From assembly GCA_965223545.1 (NCBI GenBank), contig OZ245006.1:576001-640000 (forward strand): a DNA stretch of 64,000 bases, read 5' to 3'. Source of the DNA: Planctomycetota bacterium (GTDB taxonomy: Bacteria > Planctomycetota > UBA1135 > UBA2386). The notes under the pieces are model-generated. The model saw nothing but the letters and a program-made list of their open reading frames with translations. It was not told where the DNA came from and ran no database searches. The position numbers and the translations under genes were made by a program. Below are positions 33,680 to 45,774 of the stretch, piece after piece. Each line of letters opens with the position of its first letter. The stretch's first letter is position 1.

Positions 33680-35158
33680 ATGACGCGAACACCAGTGATT
33701 CTGTTGACCGGTGCGACCGGATACGTCGGCGGCCGCCTCCGCGCCGCCCTGGAAGCCGAGGGCGACTCGCTGCGATGCATGGCCCGGCGACCCGAGAACC
33801 TCCGCTCCCGCGTGTCGTCTTCGACCGAGGTCGTCGCGGGCGACGTGCTCGATCCCGACTCGCTCCAGGACGCTCTGAGCGGCACCAAGGTGGCCTACTA
33901 CCTGGTGCATTCCATGGGTTCCAAGGCCGACTTCGAAGAGAGAGATCGGCGTGCGGCGACCAACTTCGCAACGGCTGCGCGCGCGGCCGGACTCCGACGG
34001 ATCATCTACCTCGGGGGACTCGCCGAGCCCGGGTCGGATCTCTCCGCCCACCTTCGCAGCCGCCACGAAGTCGGCGAGATTCTGCGCACGTCCGGCTGCC
34101 AAGTCATCGAGCTGCGGGCATCGATCGTGATCGGCGCGGGGAGTCTGTCGTTCGAATTGGTCCGGTCGTTGGTCGAGCGGCTTCCCGTCATGATCACGCC
34201 GAAGTGGACCACGGTGGAGGCGCAGCCGATCGCGGTCGAAGATCTCATCGACTACTTGATGGCCTGCAGGCGGCTCGAAGGCACCGAGAACCGCATCTAC
34301 GAGATCGGAGGAGCCGATCGCGTCTCCTACGAAGGCCTGATGCGAGAATACGCCCGCCAGCGAGGCCTGCGCCGGTTCATGCTCCGCGTGCCCGTCATCA
34401 CCCCGTGGCTCTCGAGCCTCTGGCTCGGCCTGATCACGCCGGTCTTTGCCCGGATCGGGCGCAAGCTCATCGAGAGCATCAAGAGCCCCTCCGTGGTCCG
34501 CGACCCCTCGGCGGTCGTCGACTTCGACATCGAACCCACCGGGATGAGTTCTGCTATCGCCCGCGCCCTCGCCGACGAAGAAGCCTCGTTCGTTGAGAGC
34601 CGTTGGTCGGACGCACTCTCCAGCGGCGGCGACGTCGTGACCTGGGCGGGGGTCCGCTTCGGCAACCGGCTCGTCGACCGCCGCTCGCAGGTGCTCGCTC
34701 TGGAGCCCGTCGCTGCGTTCGCACCAATCCGTCGCATCGGTGGCAGGAACGGGTGGTACGCGTTCAACTGGCTCTGGAGCCTGCGCGGGACGATCGACCT
34801 CCTGCTCGGCGGCGTGGGCACGAGACGCGGGCGGTCACATCCGGACCGCGTCCGCGTCGGGGATGCCATCGACTTCTGGCGAGTGGAGGCATACGAGCCC
34901 GATCGACGGTTGCGCCTCTCGGCCGAGATGAAGCTCCCGGGAAGGGCATGGCTCGAGTTCGAAGCCAAGCCACAAGGCGCCGGCTCGGTGGTCTGCCAAA
35001 CCGCCGTCTTCGACCCCGTCGGTCTCGGCGGCCTGGCATACTGGTACCTCGTGTACCCACTGCACGCGCTCGTCTTTCGCGGCATGCTGAACGGGGTCAC
35101 GCGGGAAGCTCAGCGCGGCCGCGGCCGCAACCAAAGACCGAGCGCACCACGACAGTAG
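33680..35158 (+). CDS. NAD(P)-dependent SDR/epimerase with DUF2867-like C-terminus (YbjT-like)
   Basis: LLTGATGYVGGRL, YYLVHSM, HLRSRHEVG, GGRNGW, DFWRVE, AEMKLPGRAWLEF; last ~16 codons come from repeat R3. Confidence 0.9.
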   Translation: MTRTPVILLTGATGYVGGRLRAALEAEGDSLRCMARRPENLRSRVSSSTEVVAGDVLDPDSLQDALSGTKVAYYLVHSMGSKADFEERDRRAATNFATAARAAGLRRIIYLGGLAEPGSDLSAHLRSRHEVGEILRTSGCQVIELRASIVIGAGSLSFELVRSLVERLPVMITPKWTTVEAQPIAVEDLIDYLMACRRLEGTENRIYEIGGADRVSYEGLMREYARQRGLRRFMLRVPVITPWLSSLWLGLITPVFARIGRKLIESIKSPSVVRDPSAVVDFDIEPTGMSSAIARALADEEASFVESRWSDALSSGGDVVTWAGVRFGNRLVDRRSQVLALEPVAAFAPIRRIGGRNGWYAFNWLWSLRGTIDLLLGGVGTRRGRSHPDRVRVGDAIDFWRVEAYEPDRRLRLSAEMKLPGRAWLEFEAKPQGAGSVVCQTAVFDPVGLGGLAYWYLVYPLHALVFRGMLNGVTREAQRGRGRNQRPSAPRQ

Positions 35159-35519
35159 CGGAGCCCGCGAATCCAGCGGTGCTGGGCGGCCGCGCTGAGC
35201 CCGGAGGCCAGTGTTGTCTTCGAGCCTCCGGGAGCTGCGTTGTCGAATTCCCGGCGACGACGGGCCTTCCGAAAGGTTGTTGCCGCTCGAACATTCTCGG
35301 ACCCCGAGGCTCAGTGCGGCCGCGGCCGCAACGGTATCAAAGACCGAGCGCACCACGACAGTAGCGGAGCCCGCGAATCCAGCGGTGCTGGGCGGCCGCG
35401 CTGAGCCCAGAGGCCAGTGTTGTCTTCGAGCCTCCGGGAGCTGCGTTGTCGAAGTTCCAGCGGCATCAAGCCTTCGAAAATGTTGTCGCCGCGCGAAGAT
35501 TCTCGGCCCCGGACGCTCC
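35109..35519 (+). repeat. Two tandem copies (R3 35109-35313, R4 35310-35519) of the ~200-bp palindromic repeat, each with an empty IS target
   Basis: Direct repeat with periods of 201 and 206 bp; perfect 15-bp inverted repeat 35108-35122/35186-35200; tcgAGcctccgg at 35220-35231 and 35426-35437. Confidence 0.95.
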
Positions 35520-36057: not shown

Positions 36058-38325
36058 TCACAGCGGCGCGCGCGTGAACACGCCGCGACCGTAGGTGCCG
36101 ATCGCGATCTCGTTGGAGCGCGGGTCGTAGACCATGTCGGTCACGTAGGGCGTGGTCGGCAACCCGTCGTTGTAGCTCTGCCACGTGGTGCCGCGGTCGG
36201 TCGACACGAAGACCCCGAGGTCGGAGCCGATGTAGAGGTGGCCGCGATCGTCCGGTGACCACAGCACACAGCGCACGTTGATCATCGATCCCAGGTTGCC
36301 CGTGCAATCGTTCCAGGTCTCGCCGGAATCGCGGCTGCAGACCACCCGGGTTCTAGTGATCCCACTCAGCCCCGCGATGACGAGGCGCCCGGCGTCGCTG
36401 ACCGAGCCGAACTCGATGTCGGTCACCTGCTTGCCCGACCACGATCCCGATCTGAGGGTGGCGAGATGAAGCGTCGGGTTGGCCGGAGTGGAGACGCGCA
36501 TGGGAACGATGCTGCCGTCGAGCCCGACCACGATCACTTCCGCAGTCGGCGTGGCGAGCGTCGCAGCAACCTTGGTCGGCACGGTTCCGGCCGGTACCGA
36601 GAACCGCTGGGACCACGCGGTGCCGGGGCCGGGGGTGCTGTAGACCGCGCCGCCGAAGTTCGTCAGGAAGGACCGGCCAGACCAGGTCAGGTCGGCGGTC
36701 CAGGGTTGACCACTCGGCAAACCGCTGGAGAACGAGTTCCACGCGCCACACGTCTGGCTCAGCGAGGGCGGGTACTGGAAGCGAAACTGACTGGTCGATG
36801 ACAGGCCGACCAGGGTCGAGTACAGCGTGCCGTCCTTGAACAACACGTCGCCACCGTCGCAGCAGGTGATTGCGTCCCACTGCCGGAACTCGTTGGGCCC
36901 CATCTGGACGCCGTTGTCCTGGGTGCCGATCGCGTATCGAGTTCCCGCGAACTTGTTGGCCTGATCCGGATTCACGGCGAGGGTACGCACCTGCATCGCG
37001 GCCAGCGAAGTCCCGCCGACCGTCCGCCATGTCGTGCCGACGTCCTCGGAACGCACGAGGCCGCCGTCGTTGCCGGCAAAGACGACGTTTCGCTTGGTGA
37101 CGTGTGGCCAGATGCACTGCACGTCCTCGTGCGTGAGGTTCGCGGAAGCCGTCCATGTCACACCCGCGTCGGTCGAGGTGTACATCGCGCGGGCGTTGCA
37201 ACCGGTCCACACCACGTTCGGGTTCGAATCCGAGACCGCGATCGCGTTGTTGTGTCGCATCTGACCCGCCGCCGGAACCGGCGTCGTCACCTGCGTCCAG
37301 CTCTGGCCACGGTCCATCGACCGCCAGATTCCGGCCCAAGTGTCATCGGGCGCCGCGACGCTGGCGTAGACCGCGTTGTGCACCCCGATCCTCCCGGCGC
37401 CAAGCGCGATCCGCGCCAAGGCCGGCGGCGCCCCCGGCAGAGCCTTGGTGACGAACGACCCGGCGGTCCCCTGGCTGCCACTCACGTGCACCACGCCATT
37501 CCGCGTCGTCGCGACGACCGAGAAGCTCCCCGTCAACGGCTGGCCGACGACCTCGACCGCCGCCATTTGATCGACGACGACCCGGTCCCAAGTTCCGGCT
37601 TCGCCGCGGAACAATCCCTGGCTCGAGGCGACGAAGACGACGTCCGAGTTGGGATCGCCCCCCGGCTGCACGTCGATGTCGGAAACGTACGCCGTGATGA
37701 GCGAAGTGAACGCCACGCGGCTCCACGACAGGCCCCCGTCCGAGGTGGTGTAGAGCAGCCCCATGGAAGGGGCGCCCGTGCCACCGAAACCGGTTCCGAA
37801 GCTGCCGGTGCCGACCCACGCGGTTCCGGACCGGACCAAGTGGGTTTCGATCGCGCTGATCGAAGGGTGTGCGATCGCGTCGAAGGCGGGCGCCCACGAA
37901 GCCCCCTCGTCGGTACTGCGCCACAGACCACCGCTCGAGGCGCCGGCCCACAGCAGCGACGGGTTGCCGAAGTCCTGGGCGAAACTGATGATGCGACCGG
38001 TCCAAGTTCCGGCCACCGGTAGACAGCCCGCGGGCCCTTGCGCACCGACCGGTCCGACGAACTCCCAGGGCAGGGCCGCGCCGTCGGCCTCGGGTGCGCC
38101 ACCGCGAGGGTCTCCGCCGGCATACAGGTGCGCCAGCCGAACACGGGCGACTTCGGCCGCCCCCTCTGGTTGGTAGGGGTCCGTCTGCTCCGCTGCTGGA
38201 GCTGGGACGCCCTGCGCAGTGCGTTGGTCGGCGTGCGTGCATGCCACGCCGAACAGGGCCGACGCGCTGGCGGCAGCGAGAGCAGAAAAACAGGTACGAC
38301 TGGATCGCGTCGACGGGGATCTCAG
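36058..38325 (-). pseudogene. BNR/Asp-box (sortilin/Vps10-like) beta-propeller, probable lipoprotein, 5' end separated by repeat + IS insertion
   Basis: S.D.G.(T/S)W Asp-boxes, GGLWRS, GNDGG, GTQDNG, GTYGRG. There is no ATG/GTG start in front of the signal peptide; the native start is reconstructed at 40032 or 40002. Confidence 0.7.
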
Positions 38326-38436
38326 CGCGGCCGGGGCCGCAACCAAACACGGAGCATTCCGCGACCCGAGCGTCGGTCGCGGGTTCCGCGGTCGCCGGCG
38401 GCCGCGCTGAGCCCAGAGGCCAGTGTTGTCTTCGAG
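38321..38436 (+). repeat. Repeat copy R5, left half (interrupted by IS)
   Basis: Shares the conserved arms of R2-R4 up to cagtgttgtcttcgAG, then switches to IS sequence. Confidence 0.93.
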
Positions 38437-38512
38437 ATGGGATGAGAGGGTCGATCCCTCCGACGCAGTCGCCACACAATGGCGCTGCAAAATCAAAGGA
38501 GCAGATCGACCC

Positions 38513-39589
38513 ATGACCAAAGTTACCGCTCAGACCTCCCCCGTGACCATCGGTCTCGACATTGGCGATCGGAACATCCACTACTGCGCACTGGACGCGT
38601 CGCGGACGGTCGTTGCGCGGGGCAGTTTCCCGACGACGCCGACAGCGCTCTCGAAGGCGCTGAGCGACTTCCCGGGCGCCAGAGTCGCTCTCGAGGCCGG
38701 CTCGCAGTCGGCCTGGATGTCTCGGCGGTTGCGCTCGGAGGGCTACGACGTTCACGTCGTGGACCCGCGCCGAGTGCAGCTGATCGCCAAGGATCCTCGC
38801 AAGACCGACCGGCGCGATGCCGAGACCCTGGCTCGCCTGGAGGCAGGGATGCCCGAGTTGCTCGGCACGATCCACCACCGCAGCGAGCAGGCACAGGCCG
38901 ACCTGTCGGTCATTCGTGCGCGCGACCTGCTGGTGAGGATGCGGACGATGGCAGTGCAGCAGGTCCGGAGCCTGGCGAAGGGCTTCGGCGTCCGGCTGCC
39001 GTCGGCATCGACCGCGGCGTTCCCGAAGCGAGCTCGCGAGTCCATGCCGGTCCTGCTACTCACTGCGGCGGAGCCGCTGCTGGACTTGATCGCCGACCTG
39101 TCCCGCCGGATCGACGAGCTCGACAAGGCGCTCGTCGAGGCGAGCCGCGAGCGATACCCCGAGGTCGCCGTCGTGCAGCAAGTCAACGGCGTGGGGCCGG
39201 TCACAGCGACCGCGTTCGTGCTGACGATCGAGGATCCGACACGATTCGCCGAAAGCCGCCGCGTGGGCTCCTGGCTCGGCTTGTGCCCAAAGAGCTTCGC
39301 GTCGGGCGACAGCAATCCGGAGCTGTCGATCAGCAAGGCTGGCGACGGCTATCTGAGACGGCTTCTGGTGCAGTGTGCGCACTACATCCTCGGCCCGTTC
39401 GGCAAGGACTGTGACCTCCGGCGCTTCGGGCAACGCCTGATCGCCCGCGGCGGCCGCGGCGCGAGGAAACGCGCGGCGGTCGCGGTTGCCCGCAAGCTCG
39501 CGCTACTGCTGCATCGGCTGTGGCGTCATGGCTTGGTCTACGACCCACTCCACAACAGCGACCGCGTAGCTGCCCACACCGCGGTATGA
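38513..39589 (+). CDS. IS110-family DEDD recombinase/transposase (358 aa)
   Basis: AAGGAG RBS; IGLD, ALEAG, KTDRRDA (DEDD); GVGPVTA, WLGLCP..FASG (catalytic Ser), SKAGDGYLRRLLVQCA, AVAVARKLA. Confidence 0.96.
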   Translation: MTKVTAQTSPVTIGLDIGDRNIHYCALDASRTVVARGSFPTTPTALSKALSDFPGARVALEAGSQSAWMSRRLRSEGYDVHVVDPRRVQLIAKDPRKTDRRDAETLARLEAGMPELLGTIHHRSEQAQADLSVIRARDLLVRMRTMAVQQVRSLAKGFGVRLPSASTAAFPKRARESMPVLLLTAAEPLLDLIADLSRRIDELDKALVEASRERYPEVAVVQQVNGVGPVTATAFVLTIEDPTRFAESRRVGSWLGLCPKSFASGDSNPELSISKAGDGYLRRLLVQCAHYILGPFGKDCDLRRFGQRLIARGGRGARKRAAVAVARKLALLLHRLWRHGLVYDPLHNSDRVAAHTAV

Positions 39590-39890
39590 CCCAACCATGA
39601 TCGCCCCACCCCCAACCAACCGAATACCGTGGAGGAACCTGGCGTGATGCCGCTCCTGCACTGCTGAAGACTCACCGCCCGATCCCGGCGACAGCGACCG
39701 GAGGCTTGGCCCTCGAGGCCGTTATCGAGAAAGCTGCGCCGGGTCGGACGGATCTCATCGTGCACCGGTCTCGGACGAGGCCATCAGAGTGCGTATGGAA
39801 GCCTGCGGAGTCCGAAGCTTGTCGCGCAGGGCGGCGCCAAGGCGCCCAGATTCTCAAGAAGAACAGATCCACAGACAAAGAGCTGTTGAC
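39590..39890 (+). ncRNA. Predicted bridge RNA/seekRNA of the IS1111-type element (ends approximate; core about 39679-39803)
   Basis: Target loop with guides ccggaggct (39698-39706) and tcgag (39725-39729); donor loop with guides atctcatc (39752-39759) and atggaag (39795-39801); each pair brackets an internal hairpin. Confidence 0.85.
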
Positions 39891-39891
39891 G
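39886..39891 (+). promoter_or_regulatory. -35 half of the circle-junction promoter
   Basis: TTGACG; in the predicted circle it sits 17 nt before GAAGAT, which forms across the junction. Confidence 0.65.
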
Positions 39892-39910
39892 GGATCGCCC
39901 CTCTCATGGA

Positions 39911-40001
39911 AGCCTCCGGGAGCTGCGTTGTCGAAGTTCCAGCGGCATCGAGCCTTCCGAAAGGTTGTCGCCGCGCGAAGATTTGCGGACCCTGAGGCTC
40001 A
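39911..40001 (+). repeat. Repeat copy R5, right half
   Basis: AGcctccgggagctgcgttgtcgaagttccagcggcatc...gaggctca continues exactly where the left half stopped (compare 35429-35519). Confidence 0.93.
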
Positions 40002-40233
40002 CGGTGCGTTTTGCGGATGCGGGGTGTGACATGCCCCGGGCAGTGCCGCGCCGCAGCGACCGCAACACCCAACACGGCAACTTCCCCATATCTCTCACCC
40101 CTCGGTGTTGCATTCCGGCGGTCACGACACTCTCAACGAGGCGATGGCGCTTGACCGCAACACCTAGCCGACCGCTGCGCCGCGCTTCGGCGGCCACTCG
40201 GCCATACTACGGCGCAGGCGAGACCCTCCGCGA

Positions 40234-40926
40234 ATGTCAGACATCCCAGACCCCTCCGCCGCGGTCACGCGTGCCCTCGATGACGGAGACGCCCGCGCTC
40301 TCGACGAGCTCGTGGTCGCGTTGCTGCCACGGCTGGAGGCCTACGTCCACCTGAAGATGGGACCAGGCCTCCGGCAGCGTGAGGGATCGGCGGACGTCGT
40401 GCAGTCGGTGTGCCGCGAGGCTCTCGAGGGCTTGCGCGATGGCCCGTTCGAGTTCCGCGGCAGAGCGGCCTTCTTGTCCTGGCTGTTCACCACCGCGCTC
40501 AACAAGATTCGCGAGCGCGACCGATTCAATCGCCGCCAGCGCCGGGCTGCCGCACGCGAGTTGCCGGCAACCGCGATCGGCTCGGCCGCCGGCCACTTGG
40601 TGTCGCCGAGCCGCAAGCTCATGGCCCAGGAGGAGCTCGCCCGGGTCGAGCACGTCTTCGGCACGCTGTCGGAACGCGACCAAGAGATCATCATCCTCGC
40701 CCGCGTCATGGGGCTGGCGCGGACCGAGATCGCCGAGCTGCTCGGCTGCACCGCCGCCGCGGCGCGCGTCAGACTGGGACGCGCCGTGGCGCGCTTGGGC
40801 GCGGCGCTCGCAAACGCCGAAGGCGACGCCCTGCCATCACGGGCGCCGGATCGATTGCGCGGCAGCATCGACGCCGGCGAGGACGACGACTCGTCCACCG
40901 GCGCTCGACCGGACTCCTCGCGGTGA
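40234..40926 (+). CDS. ECF sigma factor (kinase-associated type)
   Basis: LRQREGSADVVQSV, FEFRGRAAFLSWLF..ALNKIR, EIAELLG....ARVRLGRA. Confidence 0.85.
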   Translation: MSDIPDPSAAVTRALDDGDARALDELVVALLPRLEAYVHLKMGPGLRQREGSADVVQSVCREALEGLRDGPFEFRGRAAFLSWLFTTALNKIRERDRFNRRQRRAAARELPATAIGSAAGHLVSPSRKLMAQEELARVEHVFGTLSERDQEIIILARVMGLARTEIAELLGCTAAAARVRLGRAVARLGAALANAEGDALPSRAPDRLRGSIDAGEDDDSSTGARPDSSR

Positions 40927-40935
40927 CCCGCACCC

Positions 40936-43900
40936 TCACCGTCCGTTCGCGAAACGATCGGCGGCTCCCGCCTCCCACTTGTGCAGAAACGCCGGCCATC
41001 CCCACCGCTCGTGGAAACGCGCGTACAAGCGGCGACCATCCCGAGACCAGGCCAAATGGCTACTCGTGCCACCGCCGAGTTCCAACAACAACGTGCCCGT
41101 CGCAAAGTCCAGGATCTTGACCTTGCCGTCTGCACCCGAGGTCGCGACGCGTTGGCTGTCCGGCGCGACGGCCACGGAGTACACGCTCGTCGACAGTCGG
41201 GCGAGCTGACGCACGACTGTCAAATCCTCGGCGTCGCGCAGATACACACCACCCCCGGCATCTCCAGTGACGATCAGCGGCTCGTCCGGCACCGGCGCAA
41301 GGTCCGCCACGCGTTGATCGGTGCGCGCAGCGGCCTCGAGCTCCCCGTCGCCGACAGCAAACCGCAGCAGCTCACCATCATCGCGGCCACAGAAGACGCC
41401 CTTGCCGTCCGCTGAGAACTCCGAGAAGGCGGGTGGCGAGGAGCCCGCGTCGAACTCGTGTCGCCAGCGCACGTCGAGGGAGACCGCATCCAGCACCTGC
41501 ACCGACATGTCGTCCCAAGAGGAGATGGCGAGACTCAGCCCGTCCGGACTCACCGAGATCGCCGAGATCCTACCGGGCACCACCCGGCGCTCACCCTCGA
41601 TCGATGCATCGCGGACGCGGAAGCGGCGCAGGATCCCATCCCACCCGACGACGAACATCGCGTCGGTCGTGAGCGCGGCTCGCTCGCCGAGCATCTCGGG
41701 CGAGGACGCCTCATGGTGCATCACGATCGCACCGGTCCGCAGCTCGCGCACCGCGATGCTGCCGTCCATCTCCGAGTACGCGACGCGCCCCGACGCAACG
41801 TCGTAGCCGACGCCGCGACAGTCCCTGCCAAGCGAGTACGAGACCAGGTCTTGCGGCGGTTTCGCCGGCCACACTTTGACCGTGCCGCCGTGCGCCATGG
41901 TCGCGAGCCGCGATCGGTCGGGGGAGAGCGCGCAGCCGAAGACGCCGAGCGCGTGGCCGTCGTAGCTGCCCAGCGGCTCTCCGGTATCGAGCTTCCAAGC
42001 GGCCACCATCGCCTTGCCCCATCCGCCGACGGCATAGAGCACGCCGTCGCTCGAGTCGATCACCATTTCCCGCACGACCTCGGGCACGCGCAACGCGTAG
42101 CGCAGCGCACCGGTGTCGGCTTCTCGCACGACGATGCGCGGGTCCCCACCGGAGAGCACGAGGAGGTTTCGGCGCGGCGCCACCCGCAGCAGTTGAGGAG
42201 CCTGCAGCAGGAAAGGCACTTCACCTGGCTCGACGAGCGTGCGTTGCTGGCCGGTCGCGAGGTCGATGCGCGCGAGACGCCCCTCTTTGTCGCCCCAATA
42301 CAAACTGTTTCCATCGGGAGCGTACTCGATGAGCACGACCCAGCCGGGGACGGGATACTCCGTGGTCGGCGAACTGGAGTCACCGAGCGATTGGATCCGC
42401 AGCGGGGCGTCCACCGTTCCCCACGCGTAGTGGGTGCCGTCCGGCGAAACCGCGATCGGAAGGTAATCCAAGCCCGACGCCAGCCTCCTCACCTTCGTCT
42501 GCGCGCTGGTGTCGATCAGGTCGGCGTAGAGGTCCCCGCCCGTCCGCCCAATCGCGATCACCCGGTGACTCTCGGTGGTCGGGACGATCGCGTAGCCCTC
42601 GGAAGAGATCGGGATCTCGGTAGCCTCGCTGGACCCCACAGCCCAGCGAAGCGGAGACGCTTTCTCCGGCGCGACCAGGAGCTCGCTATCCGACAGCCAA
42701 TGCACCCGGCCCGCGCTCGAACAGACCCCGGTCAAGGAGAACAAGGCGTCGTCGACCTGGTGCAGGATCCAGTCGTGCTCCCAGCCCCGCAGCGCCGGAT
42801 CCGTCGCCGCCAGCTGCCGCTGCGCCTCGCCCGCCTGACCGGCATCCAGCGCGAGCTTTGCCGCTCGGATCGACGTGGTGTAGGTGCCCCAGTCCGCGCG
42901 GCGCCTCTCAGCGGCGACGTTCTTCTCCGCTTGCTCGACCCGTCGGGCACCCCACAGCAGGGCGGCCGCGCCCAGCAACAGGGCCAGTACCAAGCCGACG
43001 ACGGCGACGACCGTCGCCCGGTGGCGCCGCACGAGGCGGCTGAGCTCGTAGACCAGCGTCGGACGCCGCGCGGCGATGGGCTGAAACTCCAGCACTCGGC
43101 GGACATCGCTGGCGAACGCGGAGACGGTCGGATAACGACGTTCGGGATTGCGCTCCAGGGCACAGCGCACGACGACCTCGACGTCGCCGCGGAGGTGGCG
43201 GGCCAATCGGGCCGGCGTGCTGTTTCGCTTCGACGCCAGTGCCGGAGCATCGGACCGCTTGAGCAGCAGGCGGCTCGGCGGCTCGATCTCGCCCTCCAGG
43301 ATCCGGCGAAGCCCGGCCTGCAGCGGCAGCTCCCCGACGCTGCGACGATCCTGCGGCAAGTCGCCAGTCAGCAGCTCGTAGAGCACCAACCCCAGGGCGT
43401 ACACGTCCGTCCGCGTGTCCACCGCGCCACCTTCGAGCTGCTCGGGACTCGTGTACGTGGGGGTTCCGACGAATCCTCCGGCAACGGTCAGACTCTGCCC
43501 GCCCCGCGAAGCCAATGCCTTCGCCAAGCCAAAGTCGATGATCACGGGTCGCGGCCCCTCGAGGTCGTGGGCAACGAGGATGTTCGACGGCTTCAAGTCT
43601 CGATGGATGACACCGCGCTGGTGCGCATGCGCGACGCCGGCACACACGTCGACAAACAAGCGCAACCGGGCGTCGATGTCATAGCGATGCTGGTCACAGA
43701 ACCGCGTCAGCCAAGGGCCATCGATCAGCTCCATTGCCATGAAGGGCTGTCCGTTCGTCGCGATCCCCACGTCGAACACCGTGGCGATCGCGCGGTGCTG
43801 CATCTTGGCGAGCACCTGACCCTCGGCGGCGAAGCGCACCAGCGAGTCTCGGTCCTCACAATGCCAACGCAGCACCTTGATCGCGACCGCCCGATCGACC

Positions 43901-44238
43901 GGCGCGGTCTGCCGACCGCGATACACCGTGCCGAAGCCACCTCGCCCCACGACCTGCTCGACCTCGTAGTTGTCGATCTCCGGCAGTGCGGGCGCCAAGG
44001 GGACGGCGCGCAACAACTCTTGGCCGCGCGCCAACGACTCGAACAGGGCCCGAATCGCCGCGCCGTGGTCGGGCCACTGCCGGCACAAGGCGTCGACGTC
44101 GTCGGGCCCGGTTTCGCCGCCGACCCGGGACCACGCTTCATAGCACGCCTCTTCGACGGCAGGTGGCAAGGCCGGGGACCGCGCCTCCGTCGAACCATGC
44201 CGGCCAGCGGCTGAGGAGCTAGACGAGCGACCGACCAT
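40936..44238 (-). CDS. Ser/Thr kinase with TM segment and WD40 repeats
   Basis: VGRGGFGTVY, VAIKVL, HRDLKPSN, IDFG, GTPTYTSPEQ; LRGWEH linker; SPD/WD40 repeats; start uncertain. Confidence 0.92.
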   Translation of the reverse strand: MVGRSSSSSAAGRHGSTEARSPALPPAVEEACYEAWSRVGGETGPDDVDALCRQWPDHGAAIRALFESLARGQELLRAVPLAPALPEIDNYEVEQVVGRGGFGTVYRGRQTAPVDRAVAIKVLRWHCEDRDSLVRFAAEGQVLAKMQHRAIATVFDVGIATNGQPFMAMELIDGPWLTRFCDQHRYDIDARLRLFVDVCAGVAHAHQRGVIHRDLKPSNILVAHDLEGPRPVIIDFGLAKALASRGGQSLTVAGGFVGTPTYTSPEQLEGGAVDTRTDVYALGLVLYELLTGDLPQDRRSVGELPLQAGLRRILEGEIEPPSRLLLKRSDAPALASKRNSTPARLARHLRGDVEVVVRCALERNPERRYPTVSAFASDVRRVLEFQPIAARRPTLVYELSRLVRRHRATVVAVVGLVLALLLGAAALLWGARRVEQAEKNVAAERRRADWGTYTTSIRAAKLALDAGQAGEAQRQLAATDPALRGWEHDWILHQVDDALFSLTGVCSSAGRVHWLSDSELLVAPEKASPLRWAVGSSEATEIPISSEGYAIVPTTESHRVIAIGRTGGDLYADLIDTSAQTKVRRLASGLDYLPIAVSPDGTHYAWGTVDAPLRIQSLGDSSSPTTEYPVPGWVVLIEYAPDGNSLYWGDKEGRLARIDLATGQQRTLVEPGEVPFLLQAPQLLRVAPRRNLLVLSGGDPRIVVREADTGALRYALRVPEVVREMVIDSSDGVLYAVGGWGKAMVAAWKLDTGEPLGSYDGHALGVFGCALSPDRSRLATMAHGGTVKVWPAKPPQDLVSYSLGRDCRGVGYDVASGRVAYSEMDGSIAVRELRTGAIVMHHEASSPEMLGERAALTTDAMFVVGWDGILRRFRVRDASIEGERRVVPGRISAISVSPDGLSLAISSWDDMSVQVLDAVSLDVRWRHEFDAGSSPPAFSEFSADGKGVFCGRDDGELLRFAVGDGELEAAARTDQRVADLAPVPDEPLIVTGDAGGGVYLRDAEDLTVVRQLARLSTSVYSVAVAPDSQRVATSGADGKVKILDFATGTLLLELGGGTSSHLAWSRDGRRLYARFHERWGWPAFLHKWEAGAADRFANGR

Positions 44239-44343
44239 GGGGAGAATTGTGGCCGGACCGGCGGCGGTCCGAAAGGGCAGGCGGACACACGACGGCGGCC
44301 CCTGGGAGACGACAGTGGCAAACCCCGACGCCATAGTAGTCGC

Positions 44344-45774
44344 ATGCGCCCGCATCCCGACGAAGCCGAAGCGCTCCTGGACCTGGTCCGCGACGCCACG
44401 CGCGACTACCTCGCCTCTCTAAAGGCCCGCCCGGCGCGACCGCGCGGCGCTGGCGCCGCCGCCGAGTCGTTCGCCGGACCGCTACCCGAGGACGGAGTGG
44501 GCGCCGAGGCCGCCCTGCGGGAGCTGATCGCGCGCGGCCCGGATGCGGCCGTGCACAGCGCGGGTCCGCGCTACTTCCACTTCGTCATCGGGGGCAGCAC
44601 GCCCGCTGCCCACGCGGCAGACTGGTTTGCCTCGACTCTCGACCAACTGGCCTCGGCCTGGGTCAGCTCGCCCCTCGGCGTGCGCCTCGAGCAGATCAGC
44701 TTGGAATGGCTGAAGGACTTGTTCGGCCTGCCCGCATCGATGTTCGGAGTGATGACGACCGGCGCGATGATGGCGAACTACACCGGCCTCGCCGCCGCCC
44801 GGCAGTGGTGGGGTGAGCGGCAGGGCGTCGACACGGCCCAAGACGGCATCGCGCAGTTGCCGCCGATGCAGGTGCTGACCAGCGGGCACGTGCACGCGAC
44901 GATCGACAAGGCCCTGGCCATGCTGGGCGTCGGCCGCCGCCAGGTCCGGCGCTTCGCGCGCGACGCCGCCGGGCACCTCGACGAGGACGCACTGCGCGCG
45001 GCGCTGCAAGCGCTCGACGGGGCACCGGCCGTCTTGGTCGCGAACGCCGGCGAGGTCAACACCGGCGCCTTCGACCCGATCGAGACGATGGCCGCGCTGG
45101 CGCACGAGTTCGGTTGCTGGCTGCACGTCGACGGCGCCTTCGGCCTGTTCGCGCGCACCGCCCCCGAAACCGCCGCGCTGGCGCGGGGAGTCGAGCGCGC
45201 CGACTCGGTCACCGTGGATGGCCACAAGTGGCTCAACGTGCCGTACGACTGCGGCTTCGCCTTCGTCCGCGACCGCACGCTGCTCGCCAAGGTGTTCGCG
45301 CTGGTCGCCGACTACTTGCCGGACCCGGCCGATCCACGCCCGATGTACTCGAGCCTCGGCCCCGAGTCGTCGCGGCGGGCGCGAGCGCTGGCGGTGTGGG
45401 CAACCCTGCGCGCCTACGGACGCAGCGGCGTGCGCGCCATGGTCGAGGAGCACCTGCGCCTGGCGCGCCGGCTGGCAGCGCGCGTCGACGAGGCACCCGA
45501 CCTCGAGCGGCTGGCACCCGTGCCGCTCAACATCGTCTGCTTTCGCTACAACCCCGGTGGGTTGGACCCAGCGGCGCTCGATGCGGTCAACGAGCAGCTG
45601 GCGGAGGCCGTGCTCGCCGACGGCCGGGTCTACGTCGGCGCGACGCGGTTCGAGGGTGTGGTCGCCCTGCGTCCGGCGATCGTCAACTGGCGCACGGACG
45701 ACTCGCACATCGACGAGCTGGTCGACGTCGTGCGCACCCTGGGCGCGGCCTGCAACCAAGCGCCCGAAGATTGA
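44344..45774 (+). CDS. Group II PLP-dependent decarboxylase (aromatic amino acid/glutamate decarboxylase family)
   Basis: PRYFHFV.GG, AGEVNTGAFDP, WLHVDGAFG, DGHKWLNVPYDCG, LNIVCFR. Confidence 0.92.
   Translation: MRPHPDEAEALLDLVRDATRDYLASLKARPARPRGAGAAAESFAGPLPEDGVGAEAALRELIARGPDAAVHSAGPRYFHFVIGGSTPAAHAADWFASTLDQLASAWVSSPLGVRLEQISLEWLKDLFGLPASMFGVMTTGAMMANYTGLAAARQWWGERQGVDTAQDGIAQLPPMQVLTSGHVHATIDKALAMLGVGRRQVRRFARDAAGHLDEDALRAALQALDGAPAVLVANAGEVNTGAFDPIETMAALAHEFGCWLHVDGAFGLFARTAPETAALARGVERADSVTVDGHKWLNVPYDCGFAFVRDRTLLAKVFALVADYLPDPADPRPMYSSLGPESSRRARALAVWATLRAYGRSGVRAMVEEHLRLARRLAARVDEAPDLERLAPVPLNIVCFRYNPGGLDPAALDAVNEQLAEAVLADGRVYVGATRFEGVVALRPAIVNWRTDDSHIDELVDVVRTLGAACNQAPED

What the first reader, a model, noticed from the sequence alone, without database searches (positions are those of the whole stretch)
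39590..39890. Bridge/seekRNA with readable target and donor guides in the 3' end of an IS1111-type element
Seen: on the bottom strand the empty target is CCGGAGG-CT-CGAAG and the predicted circle junction (donor) is ATCCCAT-CT-TCCAT. The non-coding end contains ccggaggct (39698-39706), identical to left target plus core, and tcgag (39725-39729), the reverse complement of core plus right target. These flank a ggcc-ctcga-ggcc hairpin and are closed by cagc/gctg and ccgatcccggcg/cgccgggtcgg stems. Next come atctcatc (39752-39759; left donor, one C>U change that would give a G:U wobble) and atggaag (39795-39801; exact reverse complement of CTTCCAT), flanking gtgcac/gtgcgt and ggtctc/gaggcc stems. 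Known: IS110/IS1111 recombinases use a bispecific guide RNA with this two-loop layout, and IS621 has a CT core. Inference: this is a complete, possibly uncharacterised programmable recombinase with its own target and donor specificity.
Basis: partly seen in the sequence, partly recalled or inferred. Interest (0 to 1): 0.93.

Follow-up and report, generated by a model that had tools for sequence, protein, structure and literature searches.

The report
IS1111-type insertion sequence with bridge RNA
This is an intact mobile element of the IS110/IS1111 kind whose own small RNA carries readable guides for its genomic target and for its own ends, which makes it a well-supported new member of a mechanism described in 2024 rather than a new mechanism.

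Summary
Window 38437-39912 is a 1476-bp IS110-family element: transposase at 38513-39589, 17-nt subterminal inverted repeats, AG core on + (CT on -). The genome holds 3 identical copies and 1 damaged copy. The predicted empty site occurs 53 times exactly in the genome and 73 times within 3 mismatches (reversed control 0), inside a ~200-bp repeat.

The 3' non-coding end encodes an RNA of about 170 nt (~39661-39829). A covariance model built on it matched next to the transposase gene in 54 of 55 sources searched.

Across 36 distinct relatives (37-62% protein identity):
- The 5' target guide follows core plus 7 nt of the right flank.
- The 3' target guide follows 5 nt of the left flank plus core.
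- The 3' donor guide equals the right end plus core in 36 of 36.
- The stems show compensatory changes.
- Two-nt "handshake" positions also covary.

This matches published IS1111 seekRNA / IS621 bridge RNA rules, including the IS1111-specific guide order. It is a new member of a known kind, about 28% identical to IS4321 and at most 34% to any plasmid relative. Expression, RNA binding and reprogramming remain untested. Interest is modest.

The parts
38437..39912 (+). Whole insertion sequence, 1476 bp, counting the right-hand copy of the AG core.
   Evidence: Comparison with 53 exact empty sites. 3 copies are 100% identical and a 4th is damaged. A contig joint skips 1476 nt.
38435..38436 (+). 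Core dinucleotide AG at the left junction (CT on the bottom strand). The second copy is at 39911-39912.
   Evidence: Both junctions carry the same core in 32 of the 32 relatives with both ends resolved (two after a 1-nt register shift): AG in 30, AC in 2.
38437..38458 (+). Left end: 5-nt extension ATGGG, then the subterminal inverted repeat ATGAGAGGGTCGATCCC (38442-38458).
   Evidence: 17 nt, 94% complementary. The same ATGAGA(A/G)GG repeat was found in 19 of 31 related loci.
38513..39589 (+). Transposase/recombinase gene, 358 aa from the ATG, IS110 family. Carries DEDD (D16, E61, D99, D102) and the motif GL-P----SG (G256, L257, P259, S264, G265).
39661..39829 (+). Bridge/seek RNA, approximate extent. 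It is closed by a leader-tail helix P1 (39669-39678 with 39805-39812; possible distal pairs 39661-64 with 39826-29).
   Evidence: Model R1 scores 138.5 bits here. Leader-tail duplex energy is -20.5 kcal/mol for own pairs against -13.2 for foreign pairs, 47 sequences. P1a pairs show changes on both sides at 5 of 5 positions. The 5' and 3' ends of the RNA are not mapped.
39679..39747 (+). Target-binding arm. Stem P2 is 39679-95 with 39733-47. The inner hairpin P3 is 39708-11 with 39717-20.
   Evidence: The inner part of P2 is 98.7% paired and P3 is 95.0% paired over 51 distinct sequences, with compensatory changes. The window carries a CAGC/GCUG flip of the usual CUGC/GCAG.
39698..39706 (+). 5' target guide CCGGAGGCU. 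It is complementary to the + strand AG+CCTCCGG (core plus right flank).
   Evidence: 9 of 9 in the window. In the family, flank positions +1 to +7 match in 26-32 of 35 elements.
39723..39731 (+). 3' target guide UAUCGAG, identical to the + strand left flank plus core (5 of 7 match, TCGAG). It is followed by 2 nt (AA) at the handshake position.
   Evidence: In the family, flank positions -1 to -5 match in 24-30 of 32 elements. The next 2 nt equal the first 2 nt of the left end in 22 of 32 elements. The window matches 1 of 2.
39752..39760 (+). 5' donor guide AUCUCAUCG, facing core plus left end (AG+ATGGGAT).
   Evidence: 7 of 9 in the window, 8 of 9 with one U:G wobble. Family members score 4-7 of 9. 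It covaries with left-end variants: 6 of 6 elements with ATGAG carry U at that position, and L043 and L069 also follow.
39761..39793 (+). Donor-arm stems. P4 is 39761-66 with 39787-93. P5 is 39767-72 with 39777-82.
   Evidence: P4 is 95.9% paired and nearly invariant. P5 is 73.7% paired, with changes on both sides at 5 of 5 pairs.
39795..39803 (+). 3' donor guide AUGGAAG (right end 5 nt plus core), followed by 2 nt CC that equal the first 2 nt of the target's right flank (handshake position).
   Evidence: The guide equals right end plus core in 36 of 36 elements, across 3 covarying variants. The next two nt match the flank in 14 of 36 and 21 of 36 elements, against 9.0 and 12.2 under permutation.
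39833..39846 (+). Hairpin GGCGCC-AA-GGCGCC between the RNA and the right end.
   Evidence: Read directly. Similar GC hairpins are seen by eye just upstream of TTGAC in many relatives. Not tested further.
39886..39891 (+). TTGACG, a candidate -35 box of a promoter that would be completed only when the ends are joined in a circle.
   Evidence: TTGAC lies 21-23 nt from the element end in 27 of 36 relatives. A junction promoter is reported for IS1111/IS110 elements in PMC11187229 sections 8 and 12. It is inferred here.
39891..39912 (+). Right end: subterminal inverted repeat GGGATCGCCCCTCTCAT (39891-39907), extension GGA, core AG.
38320..38436 (.). Left half of the interrupted ~200-bp genomic repeat that serves as the target. 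The right half is 39913 to about 40020.
   Evidence: The flanks of all copies align with each other. Consensus of 73 sites.

Best explanation
Window 38437-39912 is an intact, recently active IS1111-type member of the IS110 family.

Proposed mechanism:
- The DEDD/serine recombinase (38513-39589) works with a ~170-nt RNA encoded in the 3' non-coding end (~39661-39829).
- The RNA is closed by a leader-tail helix.
- One arm carries an internal loop. Its 5' side (CCGGAGGCU) pairs with the + strand of the target (core AG plus 7 nt of right flank). Its 3' side (..UCGAG) pairs with the - strand (left flank plus core).
- Two segments in the three-way junction (AUCUCAUC and AUGGAAG) read in the same way the joined ends of the excised circle.
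- The RNA thus brings the donor (RE-AG-LE junction) and the target (TCTTCG-AG-CCTCCGG, inside a ~200-bp repeat present about 77 times) into one complex, and the recombinase exchanges strands at the AG/CT core.
- Read on the RNA's own polarity this is the IS621 layout with a CT core. The transposase and RNA genes lie on the opposite strand, which is the reversed guide order reported for IS1111 elements.

Shown here: element limits, target site, conserved RNA scaffold, guide/target and guide/end covariation, intact catalytic residues.

Inferred: that the RNA is made (probably from the transposase transcript driven by a circle-junction promoter), that it binds the protein, and that it directs recombination.
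For: Element and target:
- 3 identical copies plus 1 damaged copy, all in the same repeat and in the same orientation.
- 53 exact and 73 near-exact empty sites, reversed control 0.

Protein:
- Pfam PF01548 + PF02371; NF033542 at 230 bits.
- Invariant DEDD and GL-P----SG.

RNA scaffold:
- Model R1 gave 55 matches in 54 of 55 sources, always beside the transposase gene.
- 85.2% of cells are paired against 71.9% when shuffled, and 27 of 30 pairs change on both sides; 0 of 500 shuffles reach these values, and slid controls give 31-49% paired.
- The leader-tail helix is supported without any alignment (Mann-Whitney p 1.5e-14) and in columns the model did not fit.

Guides:
- 5' target guide 9-mer: own target mean 7.54 of 9, foreign targets 4.54 (sd 0.92, n 1186, none at 9).
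- 3' target guide 7-mer: own 6.13, foreign 3.97 (none at 7).
- 3' donor guide equals right end plus core in 36 of 36 elements (26 ATGGAAG, 8 ATAGAAG, 2 ATAGAAC).
- The two elements with an AC core carry AC in both 3' guides and at both junctions.
- Handshake positions covary.

Literature:
- The layout agrees with PMC11187229 (abstract; sections 6, 8, 9, 12, 13) and with PMC11208160 and PMC11208158 (passages).
Against: - There is no expression evidence: no run on record as RNA holds the stretch.
- Rfam 15 has no match.
- Single-sequence folding is not better than shuffles (z -0.11; z -0.85). The minimum-energy fold reproduces only the target arm.
- In the window element the 3' target guide matches only 5 of 7 positions and the 5' donor guide 7 of 9.
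- Across the family the 5' donor guide is the weakest (4-7 of 9).
- No sigma-70-like promoter was found inside the element.
- The outer part of the target-arm stem is only 68-76% paired in the model-fitted alignment.
- The relatives share ancestry, so the permutation p-values overstate independence.
Confidence: 0.92

Rival explanations
1. The RNA guides only target choice, as a short seekRNA made of the target arm. The ends are recognised mainly by the protein through the long subterminal inverted repeats, and the donor 'guides' are conserved scaffold rather than programmable guides.
For: - The 5' donor segment matches the left end poorly (4-7 of 9 across the family; 7 of 9 in the window).
- The ends and inverted repeats are strongly conserved across phyla, so most donor 'matches' are conservation on both sides.
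- PMC11187229 (sections 8, 9) found that the predominant co-purifying RNA is the short form (82-96 nt) that holds the target matches.
Against: - The 3' donor segment follows all three right-end/core variants, 36 of 36.
- The 5' segment follows left-end variants: ATGAG gives CUCA-type in 6 of 6, and L043 and L069 also follow.
- The 2 nt after the donor guide covary with the target flank, which only makes sense if this segment meets DNA.
Confidence: 0.1
2. The element is a dead relic. The matches record past function, but the copies no longer move.
For: - No expression data.
- No circle junction among the contigs laid.
- One copy is broken by an IS66-family element.
- Only 4 of about 77 target sites are occupied.
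Against: - The three full copies are 100% identical over 1491 nt.
- The reading frame is open and all invariant catalytic residues are present.
- All guides still match the target and the ends.
Confidence: 0.05
3. The short matches are chance, or a captured piece of flanking DNA, and no RNA guide is involved.
For: - A 16-nt inverted match between 39692-39707 and the right flank 39910-39925 (I9) could look like captured DNA.
- The sequence is GC-rich, so stems are cheap.
Against: - No foreign pairing reaches 9 of 9 in 1186 trials.
- Relatives with unrelated targets carry the matching sequence at the same two scaffold positions.
- The stems show compensatory changes.
Confidence: 0.01

Closest known systems
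IS1111-family seekRNAs (ISEc11, ISPa11, ISKpn4, ISPst6; Siddiquee et al. 2024, PMC11187229)
   Same: - RNA encoded downstream of the transposase gene.
- Subterminal inverted repeats with short terminal extensions.
- GL-P----S/TG motif.
- The segment complementary to the top strand lies 5' of the one complementary to the bottom strand.
- The target lies in a repeated, foldable sequence.
- Long (~150 nt) and short (~80 nt) RNA forms would correspond to the whole RNA and to the 69-nt target arm here.
   Different: - The transposase is 358 aa, against 330-350 aa quoted for the family.
- The target is different, and the hosts are environmental lineages.
- None of six conserved motifs of this subfamily (13-15-nt stretches of the RNA and end, plus U-for-T forms of two) occurs in the supplements that could be read, in either paper.
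- No biochemical data here.
IS621 bridge RNA (Durrant et al. 2024, PMC11208160; Hiraizumi et al. 2024, PMC11208158)
   Same: - Bispecific RNA with a long 5' guide (7+2) and a short 3' guide in the target loop.
- CT core when read on the RNA's polarity.
- Analogous donor guides.
- 2-nt handshake positions after the 3' guides.
- DEDD plus serine composite active site.
   Different: - The RNA is in the right end, not the left.
- Gene orientation is inverted relative to the recombination site.
- The donor guides lie in a three-way junction closed by a leader-tail helix, not in an internal loop.
- The subterminal repeats are 17 nt, against 2-3 nt.
- Protein similarity is weak: phmmer E 5e-8, C-terminal half only.
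IS4321/IS5075 (IS1111 group, plasmid-borne)
   Same: This is the nearest named relative found: tblastn gives 28.4% identity over residues 13-293, E 5e-15. Recalled rather than seen: these elements have subterminal repeats and insert site-specifically.
   Different: It is very distant. Its target (recalled: the terminal repeats of Tn21-family transposons) is different. No plasmid record exceeds 34% identity.
ISPpu9 of Pseudomonas putida (PMC12288879; abstract only)
   Same: An IS110-family element inserted in repetitive extragenic sequences, with a small RNA gene downstream of the transposase gene.
   Different: ISPpu9 has extra stand-alone copies of its RNA gene. Here the model found none outside the IS copies.

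Membership tests
IS110 family (DEDD RNA-guided transposases) | N-terminal RuvC-like DEDD domain and C-terminal Tnp domain | tested here: met
   PF01548 (E 9.9e-18) and PF02371 (E 2.6e-19). NF033542 at 230.2 bits against a cut-off of 140.
IS110 family (DEDD RNA-guided transposases) | Catalytic D-E-D-D and the conserved Ser-Gly | tested here: met
   D16, E61, D99, D102, S264 and G265 are invariant in 16 proteins. S264 aligns with the SG of ISCro4. The roles of these residues are taken from IS621 (PMC11208158 passages).
IS110 family (DEDD RNA-guided transposases) | Site-specific insertion without target duplication beyond a shared core dinucleotide | tested here: met
   Empty and filled sites differ by exactly 1476 nt, with a 2-nt ambiguous AG.
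IS1111 group | Subterminal inverted repeats of 7-17 bp with short terminal extensions | tested here: met
   17 nt, 16 of 17 complementary, set back 5 nt (left) and 3 nt plus core (right).
IS1111 group | Long non-coding region downstream of the transposase gene | tested here: met
   323 nt from the stop codon to the end, against 76 nt upstream of the ATG.
IS1111 group | GL-P----S(T)G motif | tested here: met
   GLCPKSFASG. G256, L257, P259, S264 and G265 are invariant. The motif is as given in PMC11187229 section 6.
IS1111 group | Transposase clusters with ISfinder IS1111 members in a tree | not tested
   No ISfinder reference set was at hand. The only indication is 28.4% identity over 78% of the length to IS4321-family transposases.
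Bridge RNA / seekRNA | Two segments in one loop that match opposite strands of the target and overlap at the core, covarying with the target | tested here: met
   own against foreign targets 7.54 vs 4.54 (of 9) and 6.13 vs 3.97 (of 7). The window scores 9 of 9 and 5 of 7.
Bridge RNA / seekRNA | Segments that match the joined ends (donor), covarying with them | tested here: met
   3' segment 36 of 36. The 5' segment is partial (4-7 of 9) but follows left-end variants.
Bridge RNA / seekRNA | Conserved secondary structure that presents the guides unpaired | tested here: met
Bridge RNA / seekRNA | RNA is expressed, binds the recombinase and is required for and programs recombination | not testable with these tools
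   No RNA run holds the stretch. Bench work is needed.
Bridge RNA / seekRNA | Match to a curated RNA family model | tested here: not met
   No Rfam 15 match at E up to 1. Which bridge-RNA models Rfam holds was not checked, so this does not weigh against membership.

The most novel reading that the evidence does not exclude
This element would represent an uncharacterised clade of IS1111-like bridge recombinases, spread over many phyla. Relatives were found in MAGs labelled Planctomycetota, Acidobacteriota, Myxococcota, Chloroflexota, Gemmatimonadota and Verrucomicrobiota.

Its RNA would differ in architecture from IS621:
- The donor guides sit in a three-way junction closed by a long leader-tail helix.
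- The IS621-type handshake positions are nevertheless kept.

In addition, the DNA that encodes the 3' target guide would itself be a weak target. That would explain the copy in which the right end is joined exactly after TCGAG of the guide-coding DNA, and would be a built-in self-targeting liability of bridge-RNA elements.
Probability: 0.45. Interest if true: 0.45.

Novelty: new member of a known kind. Interest (0 to 1): 0.3.

Why it matters
- It adds a naturally validated set of 36 guide/target pairs for one conserved IS1111-type scaffold. The set gives readable rules: 2+7 nt and 5+2 nt for the target, 5+2 nt for the right end, 2-nt handshake positions, and AG/CT or AC/GT cores.
- IS1111-type bridge RNAs are far less characterised than IS621. 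A compact 358-aa enzyme with a defined RNA, donor and target is a candidate orthologue for programmable recombination work.
- For the host genome, it explains why this IS sits only in one ~200-bp repeat family.
- It does not change the current understanding of the mechanism.

Tried and rejected
- **Rfam scan of the element and of the target repeat:** no match.
- **Single-sequence folding** of 39590-39915 and of 39658-39834: no better than shuffles. Only the target arm is recovered, so structure rests on comparison.
- **RNAalifold on the plain MAFFT alignment:** recovered only the inner stems. The outer stems needed the covariance model.
- **RNA runs:** no RNA holder listed.
- **Laying four runs kept as contigs:** showed only the empty-repeat joint and no RE-to-LE circle joint. 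Contigs cannot show rare forms.
- **Promoter/terminator scan:** no sigma-70-like promoter in the element.
- **A long 'handshake'** suggested by ATGGAAGCCTGCGG (39795-808) resembling the right junction 13 of 14 (D10): in relatives only the first 2 nt after the core follow the flank; positions 3-5 do not.
- **A donor-only closing stem** UCGGAC/GUCCGA (39744-49 with 39810-15): seen by eye in the window, L037 and L039, but not in other relatives, and it competes with the target-arm stem. The leader-tail helix is the conserved alternative.
- **Orphan RNA genes** elsewhere in the genome: none.
- **Motif search in the supplements of PMC11208160 and PMC11187229:** no occurrence. One scanned PDF in each paper could not be read.
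- **Earlier notes of this scan:** nothing to show.
- **Sources left out:** L038 and L066 (same element as L037 in the same genome), L065 (same as L064), L048 and L058 (contig ends just after the gene), L068 and L094 (the window's own copies).
- **Elements dropped from the guide counts:** 14 of the 55 matches had no right end called, because the contig was truncated or my end pattern was not found. Rows with identical guide segments and flank were counted once, leaving 36.

Full report
**The element.** Reading 37800-40400 and listing ORFs shows a + strand ORF ending at 39589. From the ATG at 38513 it gives a 358-aa protein.
- It carries Pfam DEDD_Tnp_IS110 (residues 13-156) and Transposase_20 (220-290).
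- It scores 230.2 bits against NCBIfam NF033542, 'IS110 family RNA-guided transposase', whose cut-off is 140.
- Against solved structures it matches only the C-terminal half of the ISCro4 and IS621 transposases (E 2.6e-8 and 5e-8).
- A 17-nt inverted repeat, 94% complementary, lies at 38442-58 and 39891-907. It is set back from the ends by ATGGG on the left and by GGA plus AG on the right.

**Copies and target.** The genome holds three places 100% identical to 38430-39920, plus the pieces of a fourth copy.
- The flanks of all copies resemble each other, so the element sits in a repeat.
- Joining the flanks gives TTGTCTTCGAG|CCTCCGGGAG. This pattern occurs 53 times exactly and 73 times within three mismatches in the genome. 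The reversed control gave 0.
- The sites lie in a ~200-bp unit that is sometimes tandem, with spacings of 200-206 and 396 nt.
- The inserted segment is therefore 1476 nt, with a 2-nt AG that cannot be assigned to either side. Contigs of four public runs show the same 1476-nt skip; these are the empty repeat copies, not evidence of excision.

All are present at the stated coordinates.
- On the + strand the target is TCTTCG-AG-CCTCCGG.
- CCGGAGGCU (39698-706) is the reverse complement of AG+CCTCCGG.
- UCGAG (39725-29) equals TCG+AG.
- AUGGAAG (39795-801) equals the right end ATGGA+AG.
- AUCUCAUC (39752-59) is the reverse complement of AG+ATGGGAT with two mismatches, one of which is a U:G wobble.

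**Relatives.** Two searches supplied related elements.
- A scan of one genome per species gave 31 loci encoding relatives at 39-62% identity. The MAGs are labelled Planctomycetota, Acidobacteriota, Myxococcota, Chloroflexota, Gemmatimonadota, Verrucomicrobiota and others.
- A search of 401 genomes of the window's phylum found matches in 26, including the window's own genome, at 37-50% identity.
- No relative closer than 62% was found outside the window's genome.
- 19 of the first 31 loci show the same subterminal repeat ATGAGA(A/G)GG and the same end extensions, while their flanks differ.

**RNA scaffold.** The 3' non-coding ends share a conserved scaffold: GACUGCG, then a variable 9-12 nt, a variable hairpin, a variable stretch ending in AGAU, GCAGC, GGAC, a variable stretch, UGCACC, a hairpin, GAGUGCG, and AUGGAAGC.
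- From an 18-sequence alignment I built covariance model R1, with 165 positions and 30 pairs.
- It gave 55 matches in 54 of 55 sources, none in L079 and two in L095. All matches lie next to the transposase gene, and 36 of them were not in the seed.
- In the window's genome it finds only the IS copies and the partial duplicate.

**Pairing statistics.** These are counted on the model-fitted alignment of 51 distinct rows, and such a fit leans towards the structure.
- 85.2% of cells are paired, against 71.9% after shuffling.
- 27 of 30 pairs change on both sides. None of 500 shuffles reaches these values.
- Sliding the partners by 1-3 columns gives 31-49% paired.
- The inner target stem is 98.7% paired, the target hairpin 95.0% and the donor stem 95.9%. 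The outer target stem (68-76%) and the donor hairpin (73.7%) are looser.
- The window carries CAGC/GCUG where 47 of 51 rows have CUGC/GCAG.

**Leader-tail helix.** A further helix joins the leader upstream of the target arm to the tail after AUGGAAGC.
- Without any alignment, each leader binds its own tail better than foreign tails. The means are -20.5 and -13.2 kcal/mol over 47 sequences and 2162 foreign pairs, Mann-Whitney p 1.5e-14.
- For 31 of 47 leaders, fewer than 10% of foreign tails bind as well as the own tail.
- In columns that the model did not treat as pairs, five proposed pairs all show changes on both sides and are 66.7% paired.
- The donor segments therefore lie in a three-way junction. 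[quoted passage not shown]

**Guide/target covariation.** A first test on 19 elements scored own targets at a mean of 13.8 of 16 and foreign targets at 11.3 (sd 0.91, maximum 14, n 336). I then called ends in all model matches. 41 of 55 had a recognisable right end, and 36 were distinct.

| Guide | Elements | Own target (mean) | Foreign targets (mean) | Note |
|---|---|---|---|---|
| 5' target, 9-mer | 35 | 7.54 | 4.54 (sd 0.92, n 1186) | none at 9; 0.17% at 8 or more |
| 3' target, 7-mer | 32 | 6.13 | 3.97 (n 986) | none at 7 |

- Right-flank positions +1 to +7 match in 26-32 of 35 elements, position +8 in 17 of 35, and position +9 in 6 of 33.
- Left-flank positions -1 to -5 match in 24-30 of 32 elements, and position -6 in 8 of 31.
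- The window element scores 9 of 9 and 5 of 7.

**Donor covariation.**
- The 3' donor segment equals the last five nt of the right end plus core in 36 of 36 elements: ATGGAAG in 26, ATAGAAG in 8, ATAGAAC in 2.
- My end-finding pattern allowed these variants but did not force agreement with the RNA.
- The two AC-core elements also carry AC in the 3' target guide and at the left junction.
- The 5' donor segment is weaker, at 4-7 of 9. It does follow left-end variants: all 6 elements with ATGAG have U at the facing position, L043 (ATAGT) has ACACUAU, and L069 (ATGGA) has UCCAU.

**Handshake positions.** In IS621, two nt after the 3' guide of each loop pair with the other DNA after strand exchange (PMC11208158 passages).
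- Here the two nt after the donor 3' guide match the first two nt of the target's right flank in 14 of 36 and 21 of 36 elements. Permutation means are 9.0 and 12.2 (p about 0.001 and below 0.0002). Positions 3-5 show nothing.
- The two nt after the target 3' guide equal the first two nt of the left end in 22 of 32 elements. This is mostly AT on both sides, with two covarying cases, AA and GT.
- The window has CC matching CC at the donor position, and AA against AT at the target position.
- The sequences are related, so these p-values are optimistic.

**Orientation.**
- PMC11187229 (abstract, sections 9 and 12) reports that in IS1111-family seekRNAs the segment complementary to the top strand lies 5' of the one complementary to the bottom strand, and that the order is reversed in IS110-type elements. 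The window follows the IS1111 order.
- On the RNA's own polarity the layout equals IS621: a long 5' guide identical to 'left target + CT' and a short 3' guide complementary to 'CT + right target' (PMC11208160 passage). The transposase and RNA genes lie on the opposite strand.

**Protein integrity.** In a 16-protein alignment D16, E61, D99, D102, G256, L257, P259, S264 and G265 are invariant. These correspond to the DEDD and serine of IS621 (PMC11208158) and to the GL-P----S(T)G motif of IS1111 transposases (PMC11187229 section 6).

**Expression.** This is the open point.
- No run on record as RNA holds the stretch.
- No sigma-70-like promoter lies in the element.
- TTGAC lies 21-23 nt from the element end in 27 of 36 relatives, at 39886-90 in the window. 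After circle formation it would stand 17 nt upstream of GAAGAT spanning the junction.
- PMC11187229 (sections 8, 12) describes such junction promoters and infers that the RNA derives from the long transcript. Here this is inference only.

**Distance from known elements.**
- The best plasmid relatives are at most 34% identical.
- IS4321-family transposases align at 28.4% identity over residues 13-293.
- None of six conserved motifs of this subfamily (13-15-nt stretches, plus U-for-T forms of two) occurs in the readable supplements of the two founding papers. Those files may not list such sequences, and one PDF in each could not be read.
- PMC11208160 already predicts bridge RNAs in 93.0% of ISfinder IS1111 elements.

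**Verdict.** The observation and the interpretation both hold. This is a new, well-supported member, and a sizeable uncharacterised subfamily, of a known kind. Function is inferred from comparison and has not been shown at the bench.

Noticed in passing
G000:C1:7063607-7067778 (loci L004-L006, L101, L102); outside the window: The fourth IS copy carries a duplicated 183-nt right end. After ...CTCATGGAAG the sequence restarts at element position 1294 (window 39730). That position is exactly after the TCGAG of the DNA that encodes the 3' target guide. From there it runs to a second right end and the normal flank. A nested insertion at this half-matching pseudo-target, followed by deletion between the direct repeats, would give this structure. 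It is a single case.
   Followed up: partly
G000:C1:7065013-7067500 (locus L103): The same fourth copy is split at element position 272 by a 2477-bp insertion flanked by an 11-bp direct repeat. The insertion encodes a 540-aa IS66-family transposase with Pfam DDE_Tnp_IS66, LZ_Tnp_IS66, zf-IS66 and DDE_Tnp_IS66_C.
   Followed up: partly
window 35100-35510 (two tandem units); 38320-38436 plus 39913-40020 (the interrupted unit): A ~200-bp repeat family has 73 copies of its central site in the genome, some in tandem at 200-206 nt. It contains a perfect 13-nt inverted repeat (38321-33 / 38399-411) and a CTTCGA...TCGAAG palindrome around the insertion point. It has no Rfam match and its nature is unknown.
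   Followed up: partly
L080, L083, L097 (one phylum-level relative clade): These relatives use an AC core instead of AG. The change appears at both junctions, in the 3' target guide and in the 3' donor guide (ATAGAAC).
   Followed up: yes
L095 (G351:C1:5603801-5607841): Two copies of a related element lie about 1.7 kb apart in the same orientation, in a target that looks like a short tandem repeat (GGAGACAGAG / GCAGAGACAG).
   Followed up: no
window 39833-39846 and 39886-39891: A GC hairpin (GGCGCC-AA-GGCGCC) lies after the RNA. Similar hairpins sit just upstream of the conserved TTGAC in many relatives. It may mark the RNA 3' end or insulate the junction promoter.
   Followed up: no
window 36058-38290 (- strand) and 40234-40926 (+ strand): The IS and its target repeat lie between a long ORF rich in repeats of the BNR/sialidase type (judged by eye, not scanned) and an ORF that looks like an ECF-type sigma factor (by eye). 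A large kinase-like ORF with WD40-like repeats follows at 40936-44355 on the - strand.
   Followed up: no
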